From Candidatus Zymogenaceae bacterium (GTDB lineage Bacteria; Desulfobacterota; Zymogenia; Zymogenales; Zymogenaceae), in NCBI GenBank assembly GCA_016933535.1, contig JAFGAS010000072.1, positions 1,410 through 65,409 on the forward strand: a stretch of DNA of 64,000 bases. The letters are read 5' to 3'. Under the pieces are notes generated by a model, which had not been told where the DNA came from, made no database searches, and was given only the letters and a program-made list of their open reading frames with translations. The translations under genes were made by a program, and so were the position numbers. Of the stretch, positions 8,298 to 15,061 are shown piece by piece (the stretch's first letter is position 1; every line of letters begins with the position of its first letter).

Positions 8298-8309
8298 CCC
8301 CCAATGACC

Positions 8310-8334
8310 CACCCCAAAAGGCAGGCCTTTTGGG
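8310..8334. terminator. gene-terminal hairpin (copy 2 of CACCCCAAAAGGCAGGCCTTTTGGG)
   Basis: Identical 25-nt element 13 nt after the stop at 8297. Confidence 0.4.
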
Positions 8335-8479
8335 AGCCCGACGGGGGGCAAGAAAAGAAATGCGGAAAAATAGTCTTCAGGATGTAGTCGTGGGATTACC
8401 CGGCTTCGTTCGTAATGGCGTGTTTTCGACGCCGGACGCGACTTATCGCGTCCGGCCTTCTTGTATCCCCGTACGTGTC

Positions 8480-8952: not shown

Positions 8953-9384
8953 TCAATCTCTCCCGTGAGAGACGACCTTGCCGAATATCTCGACCAGCTG
9001 TTTTACCTCGTCGTCCGTCAGCGCGTCCTTGACCCTGTCGGCAAAATCGGCAAAGGCCTTCACCTCCGCCTCGATGAGCTCCGTCCCCTCCGGGGAAAGA
9101 TGTATGTACTGCACCCGCGAGTCGTCGGCCGACTGCGTCTTGGCCACCAGGCCGTTCTTGATGAGCCGTTGGACGCCGATGCTGGCCGAGGCCTTGGATA
9201 TCTTGAGATGGTCGGCCAGCCCGCTGACCGTGGGGCCGCCCAGGTGGAATATCGCCTCCAGGTAGATGAGCTGGTTTACCGTTACGTTGGAATATTTGCC
9301 GCGCCCGACGATCTCTTGTTTATACCGGGTGATGGAGGTGTGGAAGATCTCGGTTATCTGTATCAGTAGTTGTATGATATCCAT
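8953..9384 (-). CDS. MarR family transcriptional regulator
   Basis: Winged-helix region VNQLIYLEAIFHLGGPTVSGLADHLKISKASASIGVQRLIKNGLV...D.R...L...G, 143 aa. Confidence 0.85.
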   Translation of the reverse strand: MDIIQLLIQITEIFHTSITRYKQEIVGRGKYSNVTVNQLIYLEAIFHLGGPTVSGLADHLKISKASASIGVQRLIKNGLVAKTQSADDSRVQYIHLSPEGTELIEAEVKAFADFADRVKDALTDDEVKQLVEIFGKVVSHGRD

Positions 9385-9478
9385 GAGCCGGCCGCATAAT
9401 GTTAGTCTGTCTAACTAAATACAACGGATGGTTTGGTTTGTCAAGGGAAAAATAGATGGGGGGGACATGATGACTAAC

Positions 9479-9661
9479 GTCATTGCGAGGAGGCCCAACA
9501 GGGCCGACGTGGAAAAGCATAATAATGTCGCCTCCGGCGACGATTACTATTGTCATTGCGAGGAGCCGAAGGCGACGAAGCAACCTTCTCACTGTCACCG
9601 CACATATACCGTCATTGCGAGGCCGTCGTAGACGGCCGTGGCAATCCCCTCACTGTCACCG
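9479..9661. repeat. cluster of GTCATTGCGAGG...CACTGTCACC repeat units upstream of the GIY-YIG gene
   Basis: GTCATTGCGAGG occurs at 9479, 9552 and 9611. The units at 9552-9600 and 9611-9661 end in CTCACTGTCACCG. Confidence 0.6.
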
Positions 9662-9757
9662 TATAACAACGGATTGTCTTTTATCCCCTCCCCTGCTATG
9701 ATAGGCGTCGTTTATCAGCGCGGAAAAACAGTGGAAAAGCAATATTACACATACATT

Positions 9758-10018
9758 ATGACGAATACGTATCATACCGTCCTTTATATCGGGGTAACCA
9801 ACGATCTAAAGCGAAGGGTCTACGAGCATAAGGAAAAGCTGGTAAAGGGGTTTACGAAAACCTATAACATAACGAAGCTTGTCTATTACGAGTCATTCGC
9901 CGATCCGGCCAACGCGATACAGAGAGAGAAGCAACTAAAGGGACGCCCAAGGGCAAAGAAGATCGAACTGATAGAGAACTTCAATAAAGCATGGGACGAT
10001 CTTTACGATTCGATTTAG
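9758..10018 (+). CDS. GIY-YIG nuclease family protein (small, about 87 aa)
   Basis: YTYIMTNTYHTVLYIGVTNDLKRRVYEHK...GFTKTYNITKLVYYE...AIQREKQLKGRPRAKKIELI is the classic GIY-YIG/UvrC-N-like small-protein signature. The start was placed at the ATG at 9758. Confidence 0.8.
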   Translation: MTNTYHTVLYIGVTNDLKRRVYEHKEKLVKGFTKTYNITKLVYYESFADPANAIQREKQLKGRPRAKKIELIENFNKAWDDLYDSI

Positions 10019-10029
10019 CTTTAGTTACC

Positions 10030-10196
10030 CACTGTCATTGCGAGGGAGTCCGGCACTTCGGCTGTCATCGCGAGGGGCCGATAGGCCCCGTGGCGATCCC
10101 CTCGCGATCATCGAAAACGGCACTTCGCCGCAAGCCCAGGGGCGGTTCCCGGTGACAGTCAGGAGATTGCCACGGTCGTTTCACTCCCTCGCAATG
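10030..10196. repeat. downstream repeat units of the same family, including an inverted copy (CCTCGCAATGACGG at about 10183-10196)
   Basis: CACTGTCATTGCGAGGG at 10030-10046 and CTGTCATCGCGAGGGG at 10062-10077. The reverse-complement unit GGTGACAGTCAGGAGATTGCCACGG...CCCTCGCAATGAC at 10151-10194 is an inverted repeat relative to 9611-9661. Confidence 0.6.
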
Positions 10197-10423
10197 ACGG
10201 TACATATATAGGTATAAGAAAGGACCACACGCCTCCCTTTAATTCCTGCCGATAAATTTATCGAAAAAGCTTGACACTCGTTTAACAAAGATTTATCCTT
10301 TGGGTAGCAATGGGGCGGTCGCAGATGCCACAACTCGAAACACTCCTCACTTCTCCCTAAGCCTCCGTCTTATCACTCTATCGGGATTATATAACCGATG
10401 GTTACTAGAATTATGGAGCTAAA

Positions 10424-12598
10424 ATGAGGTATCCCAGTCAAGTGAACCGCCTTATCATCTTATGTATCTACGTGGCGCTACTTTTCATGGCTTCGAAGCT
10501 TGCACTTGATTCATGGATTCCACCTACAGGCGAAAAAGGCCTCTGGTTTTATGCCGGCCTTGCAGCCCTTCTATTGGGAAACCTTCTCGTTTCTCCATTC
10601 TATACCAAGCCTGTTAATTCGCTCTCTTATGGCGTATCTGCTCTTATAGCACTTCTGGCGATTAATCTATGGCCTTCTAAAGAATATTCTGGTTTCGACA
10701 AGTTCCTCTGGAGTGCTACTACTGGTTACATTGCACTAGTACTGGTTGCAAGTATACTCTCTATTAGCCTTAAGGACTCATTGCGACCTCAGATACAGAA
10801 GATTGCTAGTTCCATGCGTATCTTTTGTGACATTATGGGTACACCCAAGGTGATATTTTCTTCAGTTGTCTTAGTATCACTTGTTGTCTTCCACCGGAAT
10901 TCAGCAAGAGAATATATTATAATTGGAATTGCCTGGGCGGTCATAATCGGCCTACAACCATTAGAGAACATCCTCGATCTTCTGCGGCGATTACGGAAGG
11001 TTTGGTGGAGAGATCAGCTTTCGGCACCTCTAGGAATTGTCGTTGGACATCAAATCCCTGATATCCTATTGGTGCGGCAAAATGAAGGCGGTCTCGCCGC
11101 TTTCGGTGACACTATAGTTGCTTGTAGTGAAACAGGATCACCTAGTATCTATATGGCGTTGGACCTTGTCGGTTTCTCAGAGGGACGGTGGCGTCGTGCT
11201 ATTCGCCTTAACACACCGGAACCCGTCACCGAACAACTCGGTTCCGTCTTCAGTCAAGTTGAATCAACGGCCATTGCGGTTAAAGCTGATATTGACGGCA
11301 TTGGGGTAAATATTGAGGAATGTAATCAAACATGGTGCTCAAGGGAACAGCTAATTGGCTTGGTTGCACCAAACACCGACCTTACGAAACTATATATTGA
11401 AATCGTTCGAAGTGATTTATCGTTGGAAGAAGGACGTCTGGTCGAAGTCAACATAGGCGCCAGATCAGTTATTTATCAACTTATAAATGGTTTGACACGG
11501 GAGGAAATCTTACAACAGAAAAATACTAGGGGTTTTGTAAGTGCTACTGCGAAAAAGATTGGCTATTGGAACCCTGCAAAAAGCAGTTTTGAAGTTGTCA
11601 AGTGGATACCGAATCCGAACGCTCCTGTCTTTCTCGTTTCTTCATCTGATACCGGAGTAAATAAGCAAGCAGTGGGTTTCTTTCCAAAAACGAACTACCC
11701 GGTATCTATTAACACTAATAGCTTGGTTACTCATAATACGGCGATCCTAGGAATCCTAGGTTCAGGTAAATCCTTTCTCGCAATAGAACTCGTTGAGCGT
11801 TTAATCCAGGCTGGGGTTAAAGTAATATGTCTGGACCTAACGAATCAATACGCACGCGAACTTGGACCATATCTAAACCGACTTGAAGATGAGAACGTTT
11901 TCTTGGACAGACTACGTACTGACTGCTCGGACGGTAGAAATAATGTAAATAGGAATGTCGAAGAGGGTGGGAGTATATCAAAATTTAGCAGGGAAATGAC
12001 AGTACATTTCTCTAGGTTTCTTTCTACGGACGATGAACGTAGATTACTTATCTATAACCCGGCTTCTTTCGAGGTCTGGCGGCAGGACAGCAAACCGTAC
12101 CAAGATAAAGCATCAATGGCAACACTAACACCGACGGAAATTACGAGGACTATTACTGAATCCGCGTTAGTTGCAGCACAAGCGCTTGGCATGACAGACA
12201 ATGCTAGATGTTGTTTGGTTTTCGAGGAAGCACACTCGCTCATACCCGAATGGAACGCTGTCGCGAGTGAAGGTGATAAGACCGCCACAAATGGGACCGC
12301 AAAGGCTATACTACAAGGCAGGAAATTCGGCCTCGGGTGTATCGTGGTAACTCAACGAACTGCAAATGTCACCAAGAGTATACTCAATCAATGTAATACA
12401 GTTTTTGCACTTCGAGTATTCGATGCAACCGGCATGGAATTCCTCAAGAACTACATTGGAGAAGATTACGCCAATGTACTTTCTGCACTCGAGGATCGTC
12501 ACGCTGTCGTATTCGGTCGTGCTTCTTCATGTAGGGACCCAGTACTAGTCAGATTGAACGATAGAGAAACATTCCTGTCAGCGTTCAGAGGGGCGTAA
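10424..12598 (+). CDS. membrane-anchored HerA-like (DUF87 / FtsK-HerA superfamily) ATPase
   Basis: The N-terminal roughly 200 aa carries 5-6 TM helices. The C-terminal half has the HerA-type Walker A motif HNTAILGILGSGKS, Walker B CLVFEEAH, and GRKFGLGCIVVTQRTANVTKSILNQCNTVFALRV (the HerA arginine-finger / QCNT region). GGAG RBS. The gene is low-GC. Confidence 0.75.
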   Translation: MRYPSQVNRLIILCIYVALLFMASKLALDSWIPPTGEKGLWFYAGLAALLLGNLLVSPFYTKPVNSLSYGVSALIALLAINLWPSKEYSGFDKFLWSATTGYIALVLVASILSISLKDSLRPQIQKIASSMRIFCDIMGTPKVIFSSVVLVSLVVFHRNSAREYIIIGIAWAVIIGLQPLENILDLLRRLRKVWWRDQLSAPLGIVVGHQIPDILLVRQNEGGLAAFGDTIVACSETGSPSIYMALDLVGFSEGRWRRAIRLNTPEPVTEQLGSVFSQVESTAIAVKADIDGIGVNIEECNQTWCSREQLIGLVAPNTDLTKLYIEIVRSDLSLEEGRLVEVNIGARSVIYQLINGLTREEILQQKNTRGFVSATAKKIGYWNPAKSSFEVVKWIPNPNAPVFLVSSSDTGVNKQAVGFFPKTNYPVSINTNSLVTHNTAILGILGSGKSFLAIELVERLIQAGVKVICLDLTNQYARELGPYLNRLEDENVFLDRLRTDCSDGRNNVNRNVEEGGSISKFSREMTVHFSRFLSTDDERRLLIYNPASFEVWRQDSKPYQDKASMATLTPTEITRTITESALVAAQALGMTDNARCCLVFEEAHSLIPEWNAVASEGDKTATNGTAKAILQGRKFGLGCIVVTQRTANVTKSILNQCNTVFALRVFDATGMEFLKNYIGEDYANVLSALEDRHAVVFGRASSCRDPVLVRLNDRETFLSAFRGA

Positions 12599-12693
12599 GT
12601 CAATCTTCGTGCTTTGAAGTGAAAACTAAAGGGTCGAGTTTGGCTCTAGGTGTTAGTTGAAGGTCCCACTAAACAAGGAGAGCTATATCCAAA

Positions 12694-13965
12694 ATGATCG
12701 AAACAAAACCAAAACTAGGTGTCGCCATACTTGAGCGGCCTTTGTTGAGAGTATTAGAAACTCTTTGGGAAGGTCCAGTAGCGCCTGACAACCTGGACGC
12801 AATCGAACTAGCCATTCGCGCATTTCTAGTTTCCCCCGTACTGATAGCGTCTAGAGTGCAAGATAGTCAGTGGGGAACGGCCTGGGAAGACGTCGTTGAG
12901 GATCCATCGAAAGAGTCAATTGAGAATGACGAGGCTTTTAGAGACTCTCTTCTAGATTACGAGTTTTCGGACCCTAAAGTCGCACATCCTTATACAACCA
13001 TCAGCAGTGATGAAAGCGATTTCTTGAAATCACTGGTTTTAAAAGAGATAGAGCCTCAGGCATTAGAGGCGCTCCCAAGGTGGATTAAGAGAAACGGAGA
13101 AGCCTACGCTTATCTAGATGCCTGGTATGATGGCTATGCGGAGAAAGAGTGTGAAAACCGTGCGCGTCTAATGTATGGTTACAGAGATGAACTACTATAC
13201 GAAGATGAACTAGAAAAATTGGATAGAGACCACCTATATGCTCACCCACTTTTTCATCTCGGCCCAGCCAACCATGCAAACTACCTTGTAGGTTGTCATC
13301 GTGCAGGGCTTACTGTCTATGGTATATCCCCTATAACGAAGATTTGCGCTACCCACATTTTTTCAAAGTGGCCGGACTACCTATTTAAGACTCTAGGAGA
13401 GGAATATAAGAGAGCATCAGAGGAATTACGAGGACCTGGTATGGGGGTAACACTTCCCCCTTTAACCGCTCTTCTTCTTTCCCGCGCACGAACTAGAGAT
13501 GATATTCCAGTAACCCTCCGTGACTTAAGAGAAGAGTATACCGAGGCGCGCGATGAGCTTTGGAGTATGCTTTCGGAAATGTGGTTTGCTCCTACCTGCG
13601 AGGATCAGCTAAAGATACTTCGGCAGTTGAGTAATGCCGCAAGTTCGCTTTTCGTGGCTGCATTTCCTGAAAGATTTGACGCACTAGGTTTAGCCATTAG
13701 CGCCACGGACTTGCTGACCCTAACCGTATCCTCAACTTTATCGACCATTAGGGAGCATTTTAATCCGGGGGCACGCGTGGGGGCTATTTCTTTCGCATCG
13801 AAACTCGCTAAGGACTTGCGCCTTCATTTGTTGGGTTCACATCACATTCTGAAGCGACACTTTACCGAAGACGAATTGAAGGAATTTGGAACCGGGCGTC
13901 TATGTTGGGCCTTCTTTTTCGTCCTATCCGGCTTGCCTAACAATGCCATCCAGCCGAGAGAATAA
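12694..13965 (+). CDS. hypothetical protein, HerA-like ATPase partner (no recognisable domain)
   Basis: 423-aa ORF 95 nt downstream with an AAGGAGAG RBS. It has the same low GC. It is acidic, alpha-helical by composition, and has no motif I can assign. Confidence 0.6.
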   Translation: MIETKPKLGVAILERPLLRVLETLWEGPVAPDNLDAIELAIRAFLVSPVLIASRVQDSQWGTAWEDVVEDPSKESIENDEAFRDSLLDYEFSDPKVAHPYTTISSDESDFLKSLVLKEIEPQALEALPRWIKRNGEAYAYLDAWYDGYAEKECENRARLMYGYRDELLYEDELEKLDRDHLYAHPLFHLGPANHANYLVGCHRAGLTVYGISPITKICATHIFSKWPDYLFKTLGEEYKRASEELRGPGMGVTLPPLTALLLSRARTRDDIPVTLRDLREEYTEARDELWSMLSEMWFAPTCEDQLKILRQLSNAASSLFVAAFPERFDALGLAISATDLLTLTVSSTLSTIREHFNPGARVGAISFASKLAKDLRLHLLGSHHILKRHFTEDELKEFGTGRLCWAFFFVLSGLPNNAIQPRE

Positions 13966-14380
13966 ATTTCGATTCTTCTCGACACTGATACAACCCCTCG
14001 CCAGGAAAATAAGGAAGCCGCTAGACGATCCTCTCTTCCGCACTCATGACAACAACCACAACAATCTCCCTTCCTCTAGTAGTTACTGATAGTTGCATTG
14101 TTGCAGGGTAGTTGTGCTTATTACAACGACTTGTTGTACTTGTTGTTGTTGTCGCACTATTACCGGATACTATTACCGGATACCATCACCAACATCATCG
14201 CCCTCGATTCCTTCTCTTTCGGGTTAGGTGTATTCCCTTATCTCCCCCCCTACGAAAAAACACCCCCCTTTCTCATTACGCTTGCATTTTTCACCCAAAG
14301 CGTCTATTATCGTCCTACCTCTCCGTTCAGTACGACATACAGGCCCCATTTTCTTCGGACACATTCAGAGAAGGGACATC

Positions 14381-15061
14381 ATGGCCCGTTTTGAAATCTC
14401 CCAATTCAACGACAGAAACCCCAAGAAAAAGAACCACCCCCCCGGCCGCACAAAGATCGCCGATTCGCTGCGGCTGCTCTTGCGCGAAAAGGACTTCAAC
14501 GCCATCACCACCGCCGAGATCGCCAAGAACGCCGGGGTCACCGAGGCGCTCATCTACAAGTATTTCAAAGACAAGCGCGACCTCCTCTACCAGGTCCTTG
14601 CCGAATACATGGAGCATTACATCATCCAGGCCCACCACGAGCTCAACGGCATCAAGGGGGCCTTCAATAAGCTCAGAAAGACCATCTGGACCCACATCAA
14701 CGTCTATGCCACCGACCGCGTCTTCGCAAAGATCCTGATGCTGGAGGTCAGGAGCTTCTCCGACTATTACATCAGCGAGCCCTACCGGCTCGTCAAGGAA
14801 TACAGCGTCCTGCTTTCCGACATCATCGAGGAGGGCATCAAGAACGGCGAGATCAGGGACGACATCCCTCCCCCGCTCATGTGCCAGGTGATCCTGGGGG
14901 GGATAGAGCACGTCTGCCTGACCAGGGTGATCTTCAACCGGGAGATCCAGCCCGACGCGATGACCGACGACCTTACCAGGATCATCTTCCGGGGCATCGA
15001 AAATCGCAAAGGCGACCGAGAAAAAAAAGGAGGCAATCCGGATAATTTTCTTGACAAATAA
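14381..15061 (+). CDS. TetR/AcrR family transcriptional regulator
   Basis: N-terminal HTH LREKDFNAITTAEIAKNAGVTEALIYKYFKDKRDLL. The start was moved to the ATG at 14381; the upstream part of the track ORF is a low-complexity extension. Confidence 0.85.
   Translation: MARFEISQFNDRNPKKKNHPPGRTKIADSLRLLLREKDFNAITTAEIAKNAGVTEALIYKYFKDKRDLLYQVLAEYMEHYIIQAHHELNGIKGAFNKLRKTIWTHINVYATDRVFAKILMLEVRSFSDYYISEPYRLVKEYSVLLSDIIEEGIKNGEIRDDIPPPLMCQVILGGIEHVCLTRVIFNREIQPDAMTDDLTRIIFRGIENRKGDREKKGGNPDNFLDK

What the first reader, a model, noticed from the sequence alone, without database searches (positions are those of the whole stretch)
9420..10200. Small GIY-YIG nuclease gene bracketed by direct and inverted GTCATTGCGAGG...CACTGTCACC repeat units (possible miniature mobile element at the island edge)
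The 87-aa GIY-YIG ORF (9758..10018) is preceded by three copies of GTCATTGCGAGG (9479, 9552, 9611). Two full units of about 50 nt end in CTCACTGTCACCG. It is followed by two more direct units (10030-10077) and one unit in inverted orientation (about 10151-10196, ...CCCTCGCAATGACGG). The copy at 9611-9661 and the copy at 10151-10196 form imperfect terminal inverted repeats around the nuclease gene. GIY-YIG enzymes are classic homing endonucleases, and the arrangement resembles a tiny homing or insertion element. It lies exactly at the left boundary of the low-GC HerA island. It could mark the insertion site or be a vehicle for island mobility.
Basis: seen in the sequence. Interest (0 to 1): 0.6.

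Follow-up and report, generated by a model that had tools for sequence, protein, structure and literature searches.

The report
Ssn-type ssDNA nuclease with hairpin repeats
A small GIY-YIG nuclease gene sits inside a cluster of its own hairpin-forming repeats, which matches the recently described Ssn family of sequence-specific single-stranded-DNA nucleases rather than a homing endonuclease, so it is a recognisable member of a known system that uses a repeat variant the published search pattern misses.

Summary
GTCATTGCGAGG (at most 1 mismatch) occurs six times in the 64-kb window. All six lie within 9479-10198 around one GIY-YIG ORF, against 0.39 expected by chance.

The ORF start needs correcting. 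The family is 95-96 aa, so the likely start is GTG 9731, not ATG 9758.

The locus fits the Ssn/SRM system of Chenal et al. 2025 (PMC11893778): single-domain GIY-YIG nucleases of about 94 aa that bind a hairpin repeat in ssDNA and cut just 5' of it.
- The complete units here read GTC + ATTGC...GCAAT + C. That is the same grammar as the Neisseria NTS (GTC + palindrome + C).
- Among 80 homologue loci, 77 carry such units within 500 bp of the gene. The usual arrangement is unit-> gene <-unit.
- Proteins flanked by exact NTS copies are 36-48% identical to the window protein over their full length.
- The published degenerate SRM pattern matches none of these units.
- The GTCATTGCGAGG...GCAATC type is spread over many phyla, mostly away from ssn genes.

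No homing-endonuclease features are present, and nothing links the units to mobility of the HerA island.

Verdict: a new member of a known kind, with a variant repeat. Interest is modest.

The parts
9479..9551 (+). Unit U1. It has the head GTCATTGCGAGG and an inner hairpin GGCCC-AACA-GGGCC, but lacks the canonical GCAATC 3' arm. A second small hairpin follows at 9526-9542. Together with U2 it forms a composite module of about 124 nt.
   Evidence: locate the head. The ssDNA fold is -15.6 kcal/mol, z -3.2. The stretch 9479-9600 is 80.6% identical over 124 nt to a module in the related locus L203; shorter stretches (9525-9600, 9536-9600) match two further places there.
9552..9600 (+). Unit U2: GTCATTGCGAGG-AGCCGAAGGCGAC-GAA-GCAACC plus the tail TTCTCACTGTCACCG. 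It is nearly complete, with one broken outer-stem pair (GCAACC instead of GCAATC).
   Evidence: Its ssDNA fold is no better than shuffled sequence.
9611..9661 (+). Unit U3, complete. The core 9611-9646 reads GTC-ATTGC-GA-[GGCCGTC GTA GACGGCC]-GTG-GCAAT-C. A lineage-specific tail CCCTCACTGTCACCG runs to 9661.
   Evidence: The ssDNA fold gives the two-helix hairpin at -11.2 kcal/mol, z -2.3.
9674..9702 (+). Promoter-like site (TTGTCT, 17-nt spacer, TG-TATGAT) upstream of the nuclease gene.
   Evidence: This is a consensus match only, not evidence of function.
9731..10018 (+). ssn-like gene of 95 aa with a GTG start, encoding a single GIY-YIG domain. NCBI's own call (P0001, 106 aa) would start at ATG 9698.
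   Evidence: Pfam PF01541, E 9e-16, covering profile positions 1-76 of 78. Homologue alignment A1 shows a 95-96 aa family. More than 7,900 homologues were found. The protein is 48% identical (E 2e-32) to a protein flanked by exact NTS repeats.
10034..10063 (+). Unit U4: the head GTCATTGCGAGG without a 3' arm. It begins 15 nt after the stop codon.
   Evidence: There is no significant fold.
10064..10113 (+). Unit U5, complete. The core 10064-10098 reads GTC-ATCGC...GCGAT-C, a change on both sides of the outer stem relative to ATTGC/GCAAT. The tail CCCTCGCGATCATCG can alternatively pair with the head.
   Evidence: The ssDNA fold is -15.1 kcal/mol, z -2.2.
10150..10198 (-). Unit U6, complete and in inverted orientation. 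The core is 10165-10198 and the tail CTCCTGACTGTCACCG covers 10150-10164. It faces U3, giving the unit-> gene <-unit layout.
   Evidence: (I1-I5).

Best explanation
The segment 9479-10198 is an Ssn-type cassette. It consists of a 95-aa single-domain GIY-YIG nuclease gene (9731-10018) embedded in a cluster of its cognate Ssn-related hairpin repeats.

Shown here:
- The protein is a complete GIY-YIG domain with all family-invariant residues.
- It is a full-length homologue of proteins whose genes are bracketed by exact Neisseria NTS repeats.
- The complete units have the NTS grammar: GTC immediately 5' of a palindromic stem and C immediately 3' of it.
- That grammar is conserved around homologues, while the stem sequence itself varies with matching changes on both arms.

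Inferred from the characterised Ssn enzymes (PMC11893778):
- The protein binds one strand of the unit when the DNA is single-stranded and the unit folds into its two-helix hairpin.
- It then hydrolyses the strand a few nucleotides 5' of the GTC.
- It ignores duplex DNA, RNA and the complementary strand.
- In the cell it would therefore act wherever unit-bearing DNA becomes single-stranded: incoming transforming or conjugating DNA, replication and repair intermediates.

The clustering of units around the gene, and their dispersal elsewhere, resembles the REP/RAYT situation and may reflect past or present spread of the units. Whether it does is not shown.
For: Repeats:
- Six heads are confined to the locus, against 0.39 expected.

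Protein:
- Pfam GIY-YIG, E 9e-16, with the full domain covered in the 95-aa version.
- Y8, Y19 and E66 have the same spacing as the residues Y6, Y17 and E64 whose mutation abolished cleavage by Neisseria SsnA (with alignment A1).

Bridge to characterised repeats:
- The exact NTS pattern retrieved 120 loci, and 6 of them encode a homologue.
- L288 and L263 show NTS-> gene <-NTS. Their proteins are 48% identical (E 2e-32, no gaps over 95 aa) and 36% identical (E 2e-21) to the window protein.

Grammar:
- Around 80 homologues the motif is GTC + 5-nt stem ... complementary stem + C.
- The stem types are ATTGC (42 loci), ATTCT (19), ATCCT (13), ATTCC (7, NTS-like), ATGCT (5) and others.
- The base 3' of the stem is C in 139/142, 47/47, 23/26 and 15/15 cases.
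- 77 of 80 loci have at least one unit within 500 bp of the gene. Density is 4.22 per kb near the gene against 0.63 per kb further away. The GTC...C grammar gives 299 near-gene hits against 26-110 for control heads and tails.
- The paper maps binding to the C after the palindrome and cleavage to the 3 nt before it.

Layout:
- The nearest units are + upstream and - downstream in 32 loci, against 3 for the reverse arrangement.
- Median gaps are 28 nt before the start and 13 nt after the end of the gene.

Inner helix:
- At least 4 end-anchored Watson-Crick pairs occur in 25% of 277 distinct units, against 0.6% of shuffles.
- There are 44 different 5' arms among the 70 units with at least 4 such pairs.

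No Rfam family matches the region.
Against: - The published degenerate SRM search sequence matches none of the units here (0 hits in the window). It matches near only 1 of the 80 homologue loci.
- Direct comparison with the characterised SsnA (CAX49033.1) and a CDD cd10448 assignment could not be run.
- No other copy of the unit exists in the 64-kb window, whereas Neisseria has hundreds genome-wide. The rest of this genome was not visible.
- Nearest-neighbour ssDNA energies are significant only for U1, U3 and U5. The cross-phylum consensus units fold no better than shuffles.
- The nearest downstream units here are in direct, not inverted, orientation. That arrangement is seen in only 7 of 49 homologue loci.
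- No biochemistry exists for this clade.
Confidence: 0.78

Rival explanations
1. The cassette (unit-> ssn <-unit) is itself an autonomous, IS-like mobile element, and the solitary units are its MITE-like derivatives. The nuclease would nick at the outer GTC ends and host replication or repair would complete the movement. This is compatible with the Ssn assignment, but it makes mobility the primary function.
For: - Homologue genes are typically bracketed by inverted units (32 against 3).
- Close homologues (86-88% identical) sit in unrelated contexts: next to AbiTii in L202, and as two tandem HTH+ssn modules beside primase/DnaB-like genes in L201.
- Units differ in presence between genomes about 82% identical. 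L203 has 4 units in an intergenic region that is unit-free in window 8298-8479.
- More distant MarR loci lack both the units and ssn.
- The authors of PMC11893778 raise the same analogy.
Against: - GIY-YIG enzymes are hydrolytic nucleases and no strand-transfer or ligation activity is known for them (general knowledge of the fold).
- There is no direct target-site duplication. The 10 nt outside the two facing units (cacatatacc and tatatgtacc, each read 5' of its own unit) are inverted copies and belong to the repeat.
- Only 3 of 120 genome blocks selected by the unit also carry the gene, so most copies are not part of cassettes.
- No filled-versus-empty pair with clean junctions was recovered.
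Confidence: 0.15
2. The ORF is a free-standing GIY-YIG homing endonuclease or a miniature insertion element that marks or drives insertion of the low-GC HerA island.
For: - The protein has the GIY-YIG fold.
- The cassette lies at the left edge of the low-GC segment, 10.2-14.2 kb.
- The units are arranged like terminal inverted repeats.
Against: - The protein is 95 aa, and the Pfam GIY-YIG domain covers residues 4-77, which leaves no room for a DNA-binding domain.
- There are no units, and no shared repeat of 11 nt or more, at the right edge of the island. The window has no tRNA gene.
- The orthologous MarR locus in a relative also carries units, so their presence is not tied to a unique insertion event here.
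- The characterised relatives do not cut dsDNA.
Confidence: 0.03
3. The units are ordinary REP-like regulatory hairpins or a structured RNA (mRNA stabilisers, terminators) that have no functional tie to the nuclease.
For: - The units are intergenic hairpins.
- One terminator-like stem with a T-rich tail lies at 9526-9542.
- Many copies lie far from any ssn gene.
Against: - Unit density is 12-fold higher within 500 bp of ssn homologues for the GTCATTGCGAGG type (2.18 against 0.18 per kb). For the general grammar it is about 7-fold higher.
- The strictly conserved, non-palindromic GTC and C flanks match the determinants mapped for SsnA on ssDNA.
- No Rfam family matches at E up to 10 apart from three chance-level hits.
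- The canonical units are not followed by T-runs.
Confidence: 0.04

Closest known systems
Ssn nucleases (SsnA of Neisseria meningitidis, cd10448) with NTS/SRM repeats; Chenal et al. 2025, Nat Commun, PMC11893778
   Same: - The protein is a single GIY-YIG domain of 94-95 aa with the catalytic Tyr, Tyr and Glu at the same spacing.
- The gene is bracketed by oriented hairpin repeats.
- The repeat grammar is GTC + palindromic stem + C.
- Proteins flanked by exact NTS copies are 36-48% identical to this one over their full length.
- The units also occur dispersed, away from the gene.
   Different: - The outer stem is ATTGC/GCAAT (ATCGC/GCGAT in U5) instead of ATTCCCGCG/CGCGGGAAT.
- The hairpin has two helices separated by a conserved internal loop (GA on the 5' side, GAA/GTG/GCG on the 3' side), with a variable inner stem usually closed by a GNA loop.
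- This lineage adds a tail of about 15 nt, CCCTSACTGTCACCG.
- The published degenerate SRM pattern does not match.
- No enzymology exists for this clade, and the host is an uncultured deltaproteobacterium whose competence for transformation is unknown.
REP/BIME repeats with RAYT (IS200/IS605-like Y1 HUH) transposases
   Same: - A small nuclease gene is flanked by its own hairpin repeats.
- The repeats are also scattered, often as inverted pairs or composite clusters, through intergenic DNA.
- Recognition of hairpins in single-stranded DNA is the proposed mode of action.
   Different: - The catalytic fold is different: GIY-YIG hydrolase rather than HUH tyrosine transposase.
- No covalent intermediate is expected.
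- The units flank the gene on opposite strands, not as same-strand left and right ends.
GIY-YIG homing endonucleases (I-TevI, I-BmoI)
   Same: They share the GIY-YIG catalytic domain.
   Different: Homing enzymes carry a linker and C-terminal DNA-binding domains, cut duplex DNA at long targets, and reside in introns or phage genomes. None of these features is present here.
UPF0213 / YhbQ-type small GIY-YIG proteins (PDB 1ZG2, 1YWL)
   Same: [quoted passage not shown]
   Different: The match to the family profile is only weak (E 8e-6 and 0.012). No repeat association is known to me for that family.

Membership tests
Ssn nuclease / SRM repeat system | Single-domain GIY-YIG protein of about 94 aa with no accessory domain | tested here: met
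   The protein is 95 aa from GTG 9731. The Pfam GIY-YIG match covers residues 4-77 and profile positions 1-76 of 78. The family length is 95-96 aa.
Ssn nuclease / SRM repeat system | Catalytic Tyr (GIY), Tyr (YIG) and metal-binding Glu present; these are Y6, Y17 and E64 in Nm SsnA | tested here: met
   Y8, Y19 and E66 have identical spacing. Y19 and E66 are invariant in alignment A1. The mutational data come from PMC11893778.
Ssn nuclease / SRM repeat system | BLASTP E below 1e-10 with at least 75% coverage against Nm SsnA CAX49033.1 | not testable with these tools
   That sequence could not be retrieved. As a proxy, proteins whose genes are bracketed by exact NTS copies (L288, L263) match at E 2e-32 (48% identity, 95 of 95 residues aligned) and E 2e-21 (36% identity).
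Ssn nuclease / SRM repeat system | Best CDD assignment is cd10448 (GIY-YIG_unchar_3) | not testable with these tools
   No CDD library is available here. The profile matches the UPF0213 structures only weakly, and NCBIfam gave no hit.
Ssn nuclease / SRM repeat system | Hairpin repeats within 500 bp on both sides of the gene | tested here: met
   There are three heads upstream and three downstream. The complete units are 9611-9646 (+), 10064-10098 (+) and 10165-10198 (-).
Ssn nuclease / SRM repeat system | Repeats match the published degenerate SRM search sequence HGTCWYN(0-2)YYVSBRHN(0-5)WNVSBRGN(0-2)RNCYNB | tested here: not met
   There are 0 matches in the window. The cross-phylum consensus units do not match. 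The NTS control does match.
Ssn nuclease / SRM repeat system | Functional determinants mapped on the NTS: three conserved nucleotides (GTC) directly 5' of the palindrome and a C directly 3' of it, which give the unit an orientation | tested here: met
   U3, U5 and U6 read GTC-stem...stem-C. The same flanks are kept across 7 or more stem types around homologues, with the 3' base C in 94-100% of cases. The determinants are described in the paper.
Ssn nuclease / SRM repeat system | Strand-specific cleavage of ssDNA only, a few nucleotides 5' of the repeat | not testable with these tools
   This needs purified protein and oligonucleotide substrates.
Ssn nuclease / SRM repeat system | Repeats also dispersed through the genome | tested here: inconclusive
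   There are none elsewhere in this 64-kb window. However, the related locus L203 has units in a second intergenic region. The motif also occurs in at least 120 genome blocks of many phyla, 117 of them without a nearby ssn gene.
GIY-YIG homing endonuclease | C-terminal DNA-binding domain(s) tethered to the nuclease domain | tested here: not met
   Only about 18 residues lie beyond the Pfam domain, and there is no second domain.
GIY-YIG homing endonuclease | Located in an intron or intein, or free-standing between phage genes | tested here: not met
   The gene lies between a MarR regulator gene and a HerA-like gene. No Rfam intron match was found.
IS200/IS605 and REP-RAYT | HUH/Y1 transposase | tested here: not met
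   The only significant domain is GIY-YIG; a T5orf172 match is below its cut-off.
Insertion sequence or MITE with terminal inverted repeats | Direct target-site duplication outside the terminal inverted repeats | tested here: not met
   The 10 nt outside the facing units U3 and U6 are inverted copies of each other and part of the conserved unit flank. They are not direct repeats. This was inspected by eye only.

The most novel reading that the evidence does not exclude
The GTC-ATTGC...GCAAT-C units define a separate, very widespread specificity class of Ssn nucleases that the published SRM search cannot see. In addition, the tight unit-> ssn <-unit cassette would be a self-spreading element that moves through single-stranded intermediates using a GIY-YIG hydrolase, which would be a new kind of prokaryotic mobile element. 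The solitary units found across more than ten phyla would be its non-autonomous offspring.
Probability: 0.15. Interest if true: 0.7.

Novelty: new member of a known kind. Interest (0 to 1): 0.3.

Why it matters
- **Annotation.** The result turns an anonymous 'GIY-YIG nuclease family protein' and an odd repeat cluster into a specific, testable prediction: a strand-specific ssDNA nuclease whose recognition site can be read off its own flanks.
- **Coverage of the family.** The published degenerate SRM pattern misses the commonest repeat type around this clade. ATTGC/GCAAT is the stem in 42 of 80 homologue loci, and the type is present from Bradyrhizobium to Patescibacteria. The reported 71% association between Ssn genes and repeats is therefore probably an underestimate.
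- **Tool development.** A further enzyme and site pair is available for ssDNA tools.
- **Gene calling.** Gene callers often truncate these genes by 9 codons (86 aa against 95 aa) because the start codon can be GTG, as in this window and in L127.

Tried and rejected
- **Rfam.** A scan of 9300-10450 at E up to 10 gave only three chance-level hits: mir-4523, chrB-a and sR3.
- **NCBIfam.** No hit.
- **PDB by sequence.** No single-sequence hit. A profile search found only weak matches to UPF0213 structures.
- **Exact-protein look-ups.** The 86-aa and 106-aa products are not on record, so the rest of the source contig could not be read.
- **Literature searches for the repeat sequence.** These found only coincidental primers. 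The supplementary files of the Ssn paper are not held.
- **Thermodynamics alone.** The cross-phylum consensus units and U2, U4 and U6 fold no better than shuffles with DNA parameters. The structure argument therefore rests on paired changes in the two stem arms.
- **Different left-end and right-end unit types.** This idea, suggested, did not hold up. Base 12 is G:C = 19:10 upstream against 15:17 downstream, and the length distributions overlap.
- **Co-diversification of protein and stem type.** Only a weak signal: 62.3% identity within a stem type against 57.9% between types.
- **Units bracketing the HerA island.** Rejected.
- **A clean empty site.** The window 8298-8479 against L203 comparison shows presence/absence, but the flanks are too diverged to place the junctions.
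Full report
**1. Observation**

Reading 9000-10600, a repeat search and a pattern search confirm the description. GTCATTGCGAGG, allowing one mismatch, occurs at 9479, 9552, 9611, 10034 and 10064 on the + strand and at 10187-10198 on the - strand. It occurs nowhere else in the 64 kb. The chance expectation is 0.39, and no shuffle out of 100 reached 6. Relaxing to two mismatches adds nothing.

The longer 3' module GGCAATCCCCTSACTGTCACCG is present at 9640-9661 (+) and 10150-10171 (-), against 0.01 expected. The arms 9604-9661 and 10150-10205 are 90-95% complementary. The enclosed ORF is a GIY-YIG domain. The cassette lies between a MarR regulator gene (8953-9384, - strand) and a HerA-like ATPase gene (10424-12598). 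GC content drops there from about 0.57 to 0.41-0.47 until about 14.2 kb.

**2. Corrections to the anatomy**

Homologues are 95-96 aa and begin MxxQYYVYIMTN. The 86-aa versions simply start at the internal Met. In the window the corresponding start is GTG 9731. With that start, the Pfam match covers the whole GIY-YIG profile (positions 1-76 of 78, E 9e-16) instead of 9-76. A promoter-like site at 9674-9702 precedes this start and overlaps the alternative ATG at 9698 that NCBI used for its 106-aa call.

Of the six repeat heads:
- Three belong to complete units: 9611-9646 (+), 10064-10098 (+) and 10165-10198 (-).
- Unit 9552-9587 has one broken pair (GCAACC).
- The copies at 9479 and 10034 lack the canonical 3' arm.

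**3. What the literature offers**

A full-text search led to Chenal et al. 2025 (PMC11893778).
- The paper describes Ssn, a family of single-domain GIY-YIG proteins (CDD cd10448; SsnA of N. meningitidis is 94 aa).
- These proteins bind a hairpin repeat only in single-stranded DNA and cut a few nucleotides upstream of it. They do not act on dsDNA, on RNA, or on the complementary strand.
- The Neisseria repeat, NTS, is CGTCATTCCCGCGMAVGCGGGAATCYRG. A variant, NTSvar, is CGTCATACTCGGGNNNNNCCCGAGTATC.
- Mutagenesis showed that binding depends most on the C directly after the palindrome, and that cleavage depends on the three nucleotides directly before it.
- With a degenerate pattern, 71% of homologue genes have such 'Ssn-related motifs' (SRM) nearby and 42% have them on both sides.
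- The authors note the IS-like NTS-ssnA-NTS layout and the analogy to REP/RAYT.
- In Neisseria the system lowers transformation by NTS-bearing DNA.

**4. Test of the repeat side**

The complete units in the window read GTC-ATTGC...GCAAT-C (GTC-ATCGC...GCGAT-C in U5). This is the NTS grammar with a different stem.

I fetched 80 metagenomic loci encoding homologues (49-71% identity).
- GTCATTGCGAGG-type heads lie within 500 bp of the gene in 43 of 80 loci. Density is 2.18 per kb near the gene against 0.18 per kb further away.
- I then asked only for GTC + any 5-mer ... its reverse complement. The recurrent stems were ATTGC/GCAAT (42 loci), ATTCT/AGAAT (19), ATCCT/AGGAT (13), ATTCC/GGAAT (7, the NTS type), ATGCT/AGCAT (5), ACCCT/AGGGT (4) and ATCCC/GGGAT (3). 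The next base was C in 139/142, 47/47, 23/26, 15/15, 12/12, 7/7 and 5/6 cases respectively.
- 77 of 80 loci have at least one such unit within 500 bp. The GTC...C grammar gives 299 near-gene hits, against 26-110 for control heads or tails.

So the invariant flanks are the very positions that matter for SsnA, while the stem changes on both arms together from locus to locus.

Inside the ATTGC type, a second helix starts right after GTCATTGCGA and ends right before G(N)(R)GCAATC.
- At least 4 end-anchored Watson-Crick pairs occur in 25% of 277 distinct units, against 0.6% of shuffles.
- There are 44 different 5' arms among the 70 such units.
- The 3' internal-loop triplet is GAA, GTG or GCG in 266 of 277 units.
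- The inner loop is most often GAA, GCA or GTA.

The unit is therefore a two-helix hairpin with a conserved internal loop.

Predicted ssDNA energies support this only for U1, U3 and U5 (z -2.2 to -3.2). The short consensus units are not better than shuffles. From memory, and not tested here, GCGAAGC-type mini-hairpins and tandem G.A pairs are more stable in DNA than nearest-neighbour models predict.

The published degenerate SRM pattern matches none of these units. It has 0 hits in the window and a near-gene hit in only 1 of 80 homologue loci, while the NTS control matches.

**5. Test of the protein side**

The characterised SsnA sequence (CAX49033.1) and CDD were not available, so I used a bridge. 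The exact NTS pattern was searched in viral contigs. Six of the 120 loci retrieved encode a homologue of the window protein.
- In L288 and L263 the gene is bracketed by exact NTS copies in the NTS-> gene <-NTS layout.
- Their products are 48% identical (E 2e-32, 95 residues, no gap) and 36% identical (E 2e-21) to the window protein.
- Y8, Y19 and E66 of the window protein have the same spacing as Y6, Y17 and E64 of SsnA.

Solved structures give only weak matches to UPF0213 proteins, so this is not that family.

**6. Layout and dynamics**

Around homologues, the nearest unit is on the + strand upstream and on the - strand downstream in 32 loci. The reverse arrangement occurs in 3 loci, and both units are on the same strand in 14 loci. 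Median gaps are 28 nt before the start and 13 nt after the end of the gene. The window has + units on both sides next to the gene, and its inverted unit lies about 130 nt further out, so it is one of the less common arrangements.

The genomes include Bradyrhizobium, sphingomonads, Pedobacter, Chloroflexi, Planctomycetes, Patescibacteria, Oscillospiraceae and Helicobacter rodentium. Only 3 of these blocks carry an ssn-like gene, so most copies are dispersed.

The two closest protein homologues (86-88% identical) sit in other contexts:
- beside AbiTii (L202);
- as two tandem HTH+ssn modules beside primase/DnaB-like genes (L201).

Both have the same lineage-specific unit, including the tail CCCCTGACTGTCACCG.

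The orthologous MarR locus of a relative (L203/L204) is 82.5% identical up to window position 9463. It also has units upstream of MarR, plus four more in an intergenic region that is unit-free in the window (8298-8479). More distant MarR loci have neither units nor ssn. The units therefore turn over on a short evolutionary scale. A clean empty site could not be defined.

**7. Interpretation**

The best-supported reading is an Ssn-family nuclease gene with its cognate hairpin repeats.
- Shown here: homology to NTS-flanked proteins, an intact catalytic domain, the conserved GTC...C grammar with paired stem changes, and the conserved association and layout.
- Inferred by homology: recognition of the folded unit in ssDNA, and hydrolysis a few nucleotides 5' of GTC on that strand only.
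- Unknown: the cellular role in this uncultured deltaproteobacterium (source name). By analogy, the system would restrict or trim unit-bearing ssDNA.

The IS-like reading (rival 1) is not excluded and is compatible with the Ssn assignment. The homing-endonuclease and island-vehicle readings are not supported: the protein has no DNA-binding domain, there are no units or shared repeats at the right island edge, and the window has no tRNA gene. A purely RNA or regulatory reading is disfavoured by the gene association and by the absence of any Rfam match.

**8. Novelty and score**

The kind of system has been known since 2025, so this locus is a new member of it. Beyond the paper, as far as its held text shows, the following are new:
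- the ATTGC/GCAAT two-helix unit type and its prevalence;
- the failure of the published search pattern to detect it;
- the generalised grammar GTC-stem...stem-C;
- frequent 5' truncation of these genes by gene callers.

Interest is modest (0.3).

**Caveats**
- The E-values refer to small databases or to single comparisons.
- The generic 5-mer grammar is loose (0.6 per kb background) and selects for complementarity, so the control comparisons rather than the raw counts carry the argument.
- The genome blocks are fixed 8-kb tiles, so the 3 of 120 figure somewhat underestimates proximity to ssn genes.

Noticed in passing
window 10424-13965: A low-GC segment (0.41-0.47) holds two genes. The first encodes a 724-aa protein with a hydrophobic N-terminal half and a HerA/DUF87 ATPase domain (PADLOC HerA models, E 6e-24). 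The second encodes a 423-aa protein with no Pfam or PADLOC match. This may be a HerA-based defence pair with an uncharacterised partner.
   Followed up: partly
L201 644-3420: In the locus of the 86%-identical homologue, a block of about 1,610 bp is duplicated in tandem. The block holds an inverted unit, a 78-aa HTH gene, two + units, ssn, and three more units. It lies next to primase-like and AAA_25/DnaB-like genes. The duplication suggests recombination between units.
   Followed up: partly
window 9479-9600; L203 47-123, 1410-1475, 1599-1720: U1 plus U2 form a composite module of about 124 nt. Counterparts recur at three places in a related genome: 80.6% identity over the full 124 nt at one, and 66-77-nt partial matches (79-86%) at the other two. 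This points to higher-order (BIME-like) repeat units.
   Followed up: partly
window 9397-9416: A palindrome TTAGTCTGTCTAACTAA lies just upstream of the MarR gene and is conserved in L203/L204 (TTAGTCTATCTAACTAA). It is a likely MarR operator. Nucleotide homology with the relative ends at 9463, just before the first unit.
   Followed up: no
window 14060-14200: The right edge of the low-GC segment has ACAAC/GTTGT-rich inverted runs and a tandem direct repeat (CTATTACCGGATA twice), upstream of a TetR-family gene (14228-15061). It shares no sequence with the cassette.
   Followed up: no
P0002, P0010-P0012 and other 86-aa entries: About half of the listed homologues are recorded as 86 aa and begin at the internal Met. 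The full-length family is 95-96 aa and the true start can be GTG, as in this window and L127, so gene callers appear to truncate these genes systematically.
   Followed up: partly
L148 1282-1460: One homologue (63% identical) is followed by units of the type GTCATTCCGAGG...CCGAGGAATC. Their 5' arm combines the ATTCC start of the Neisseria NTS stem with the GAGG of the window's head (GTCATTGCGAGG).
   Followed up: no
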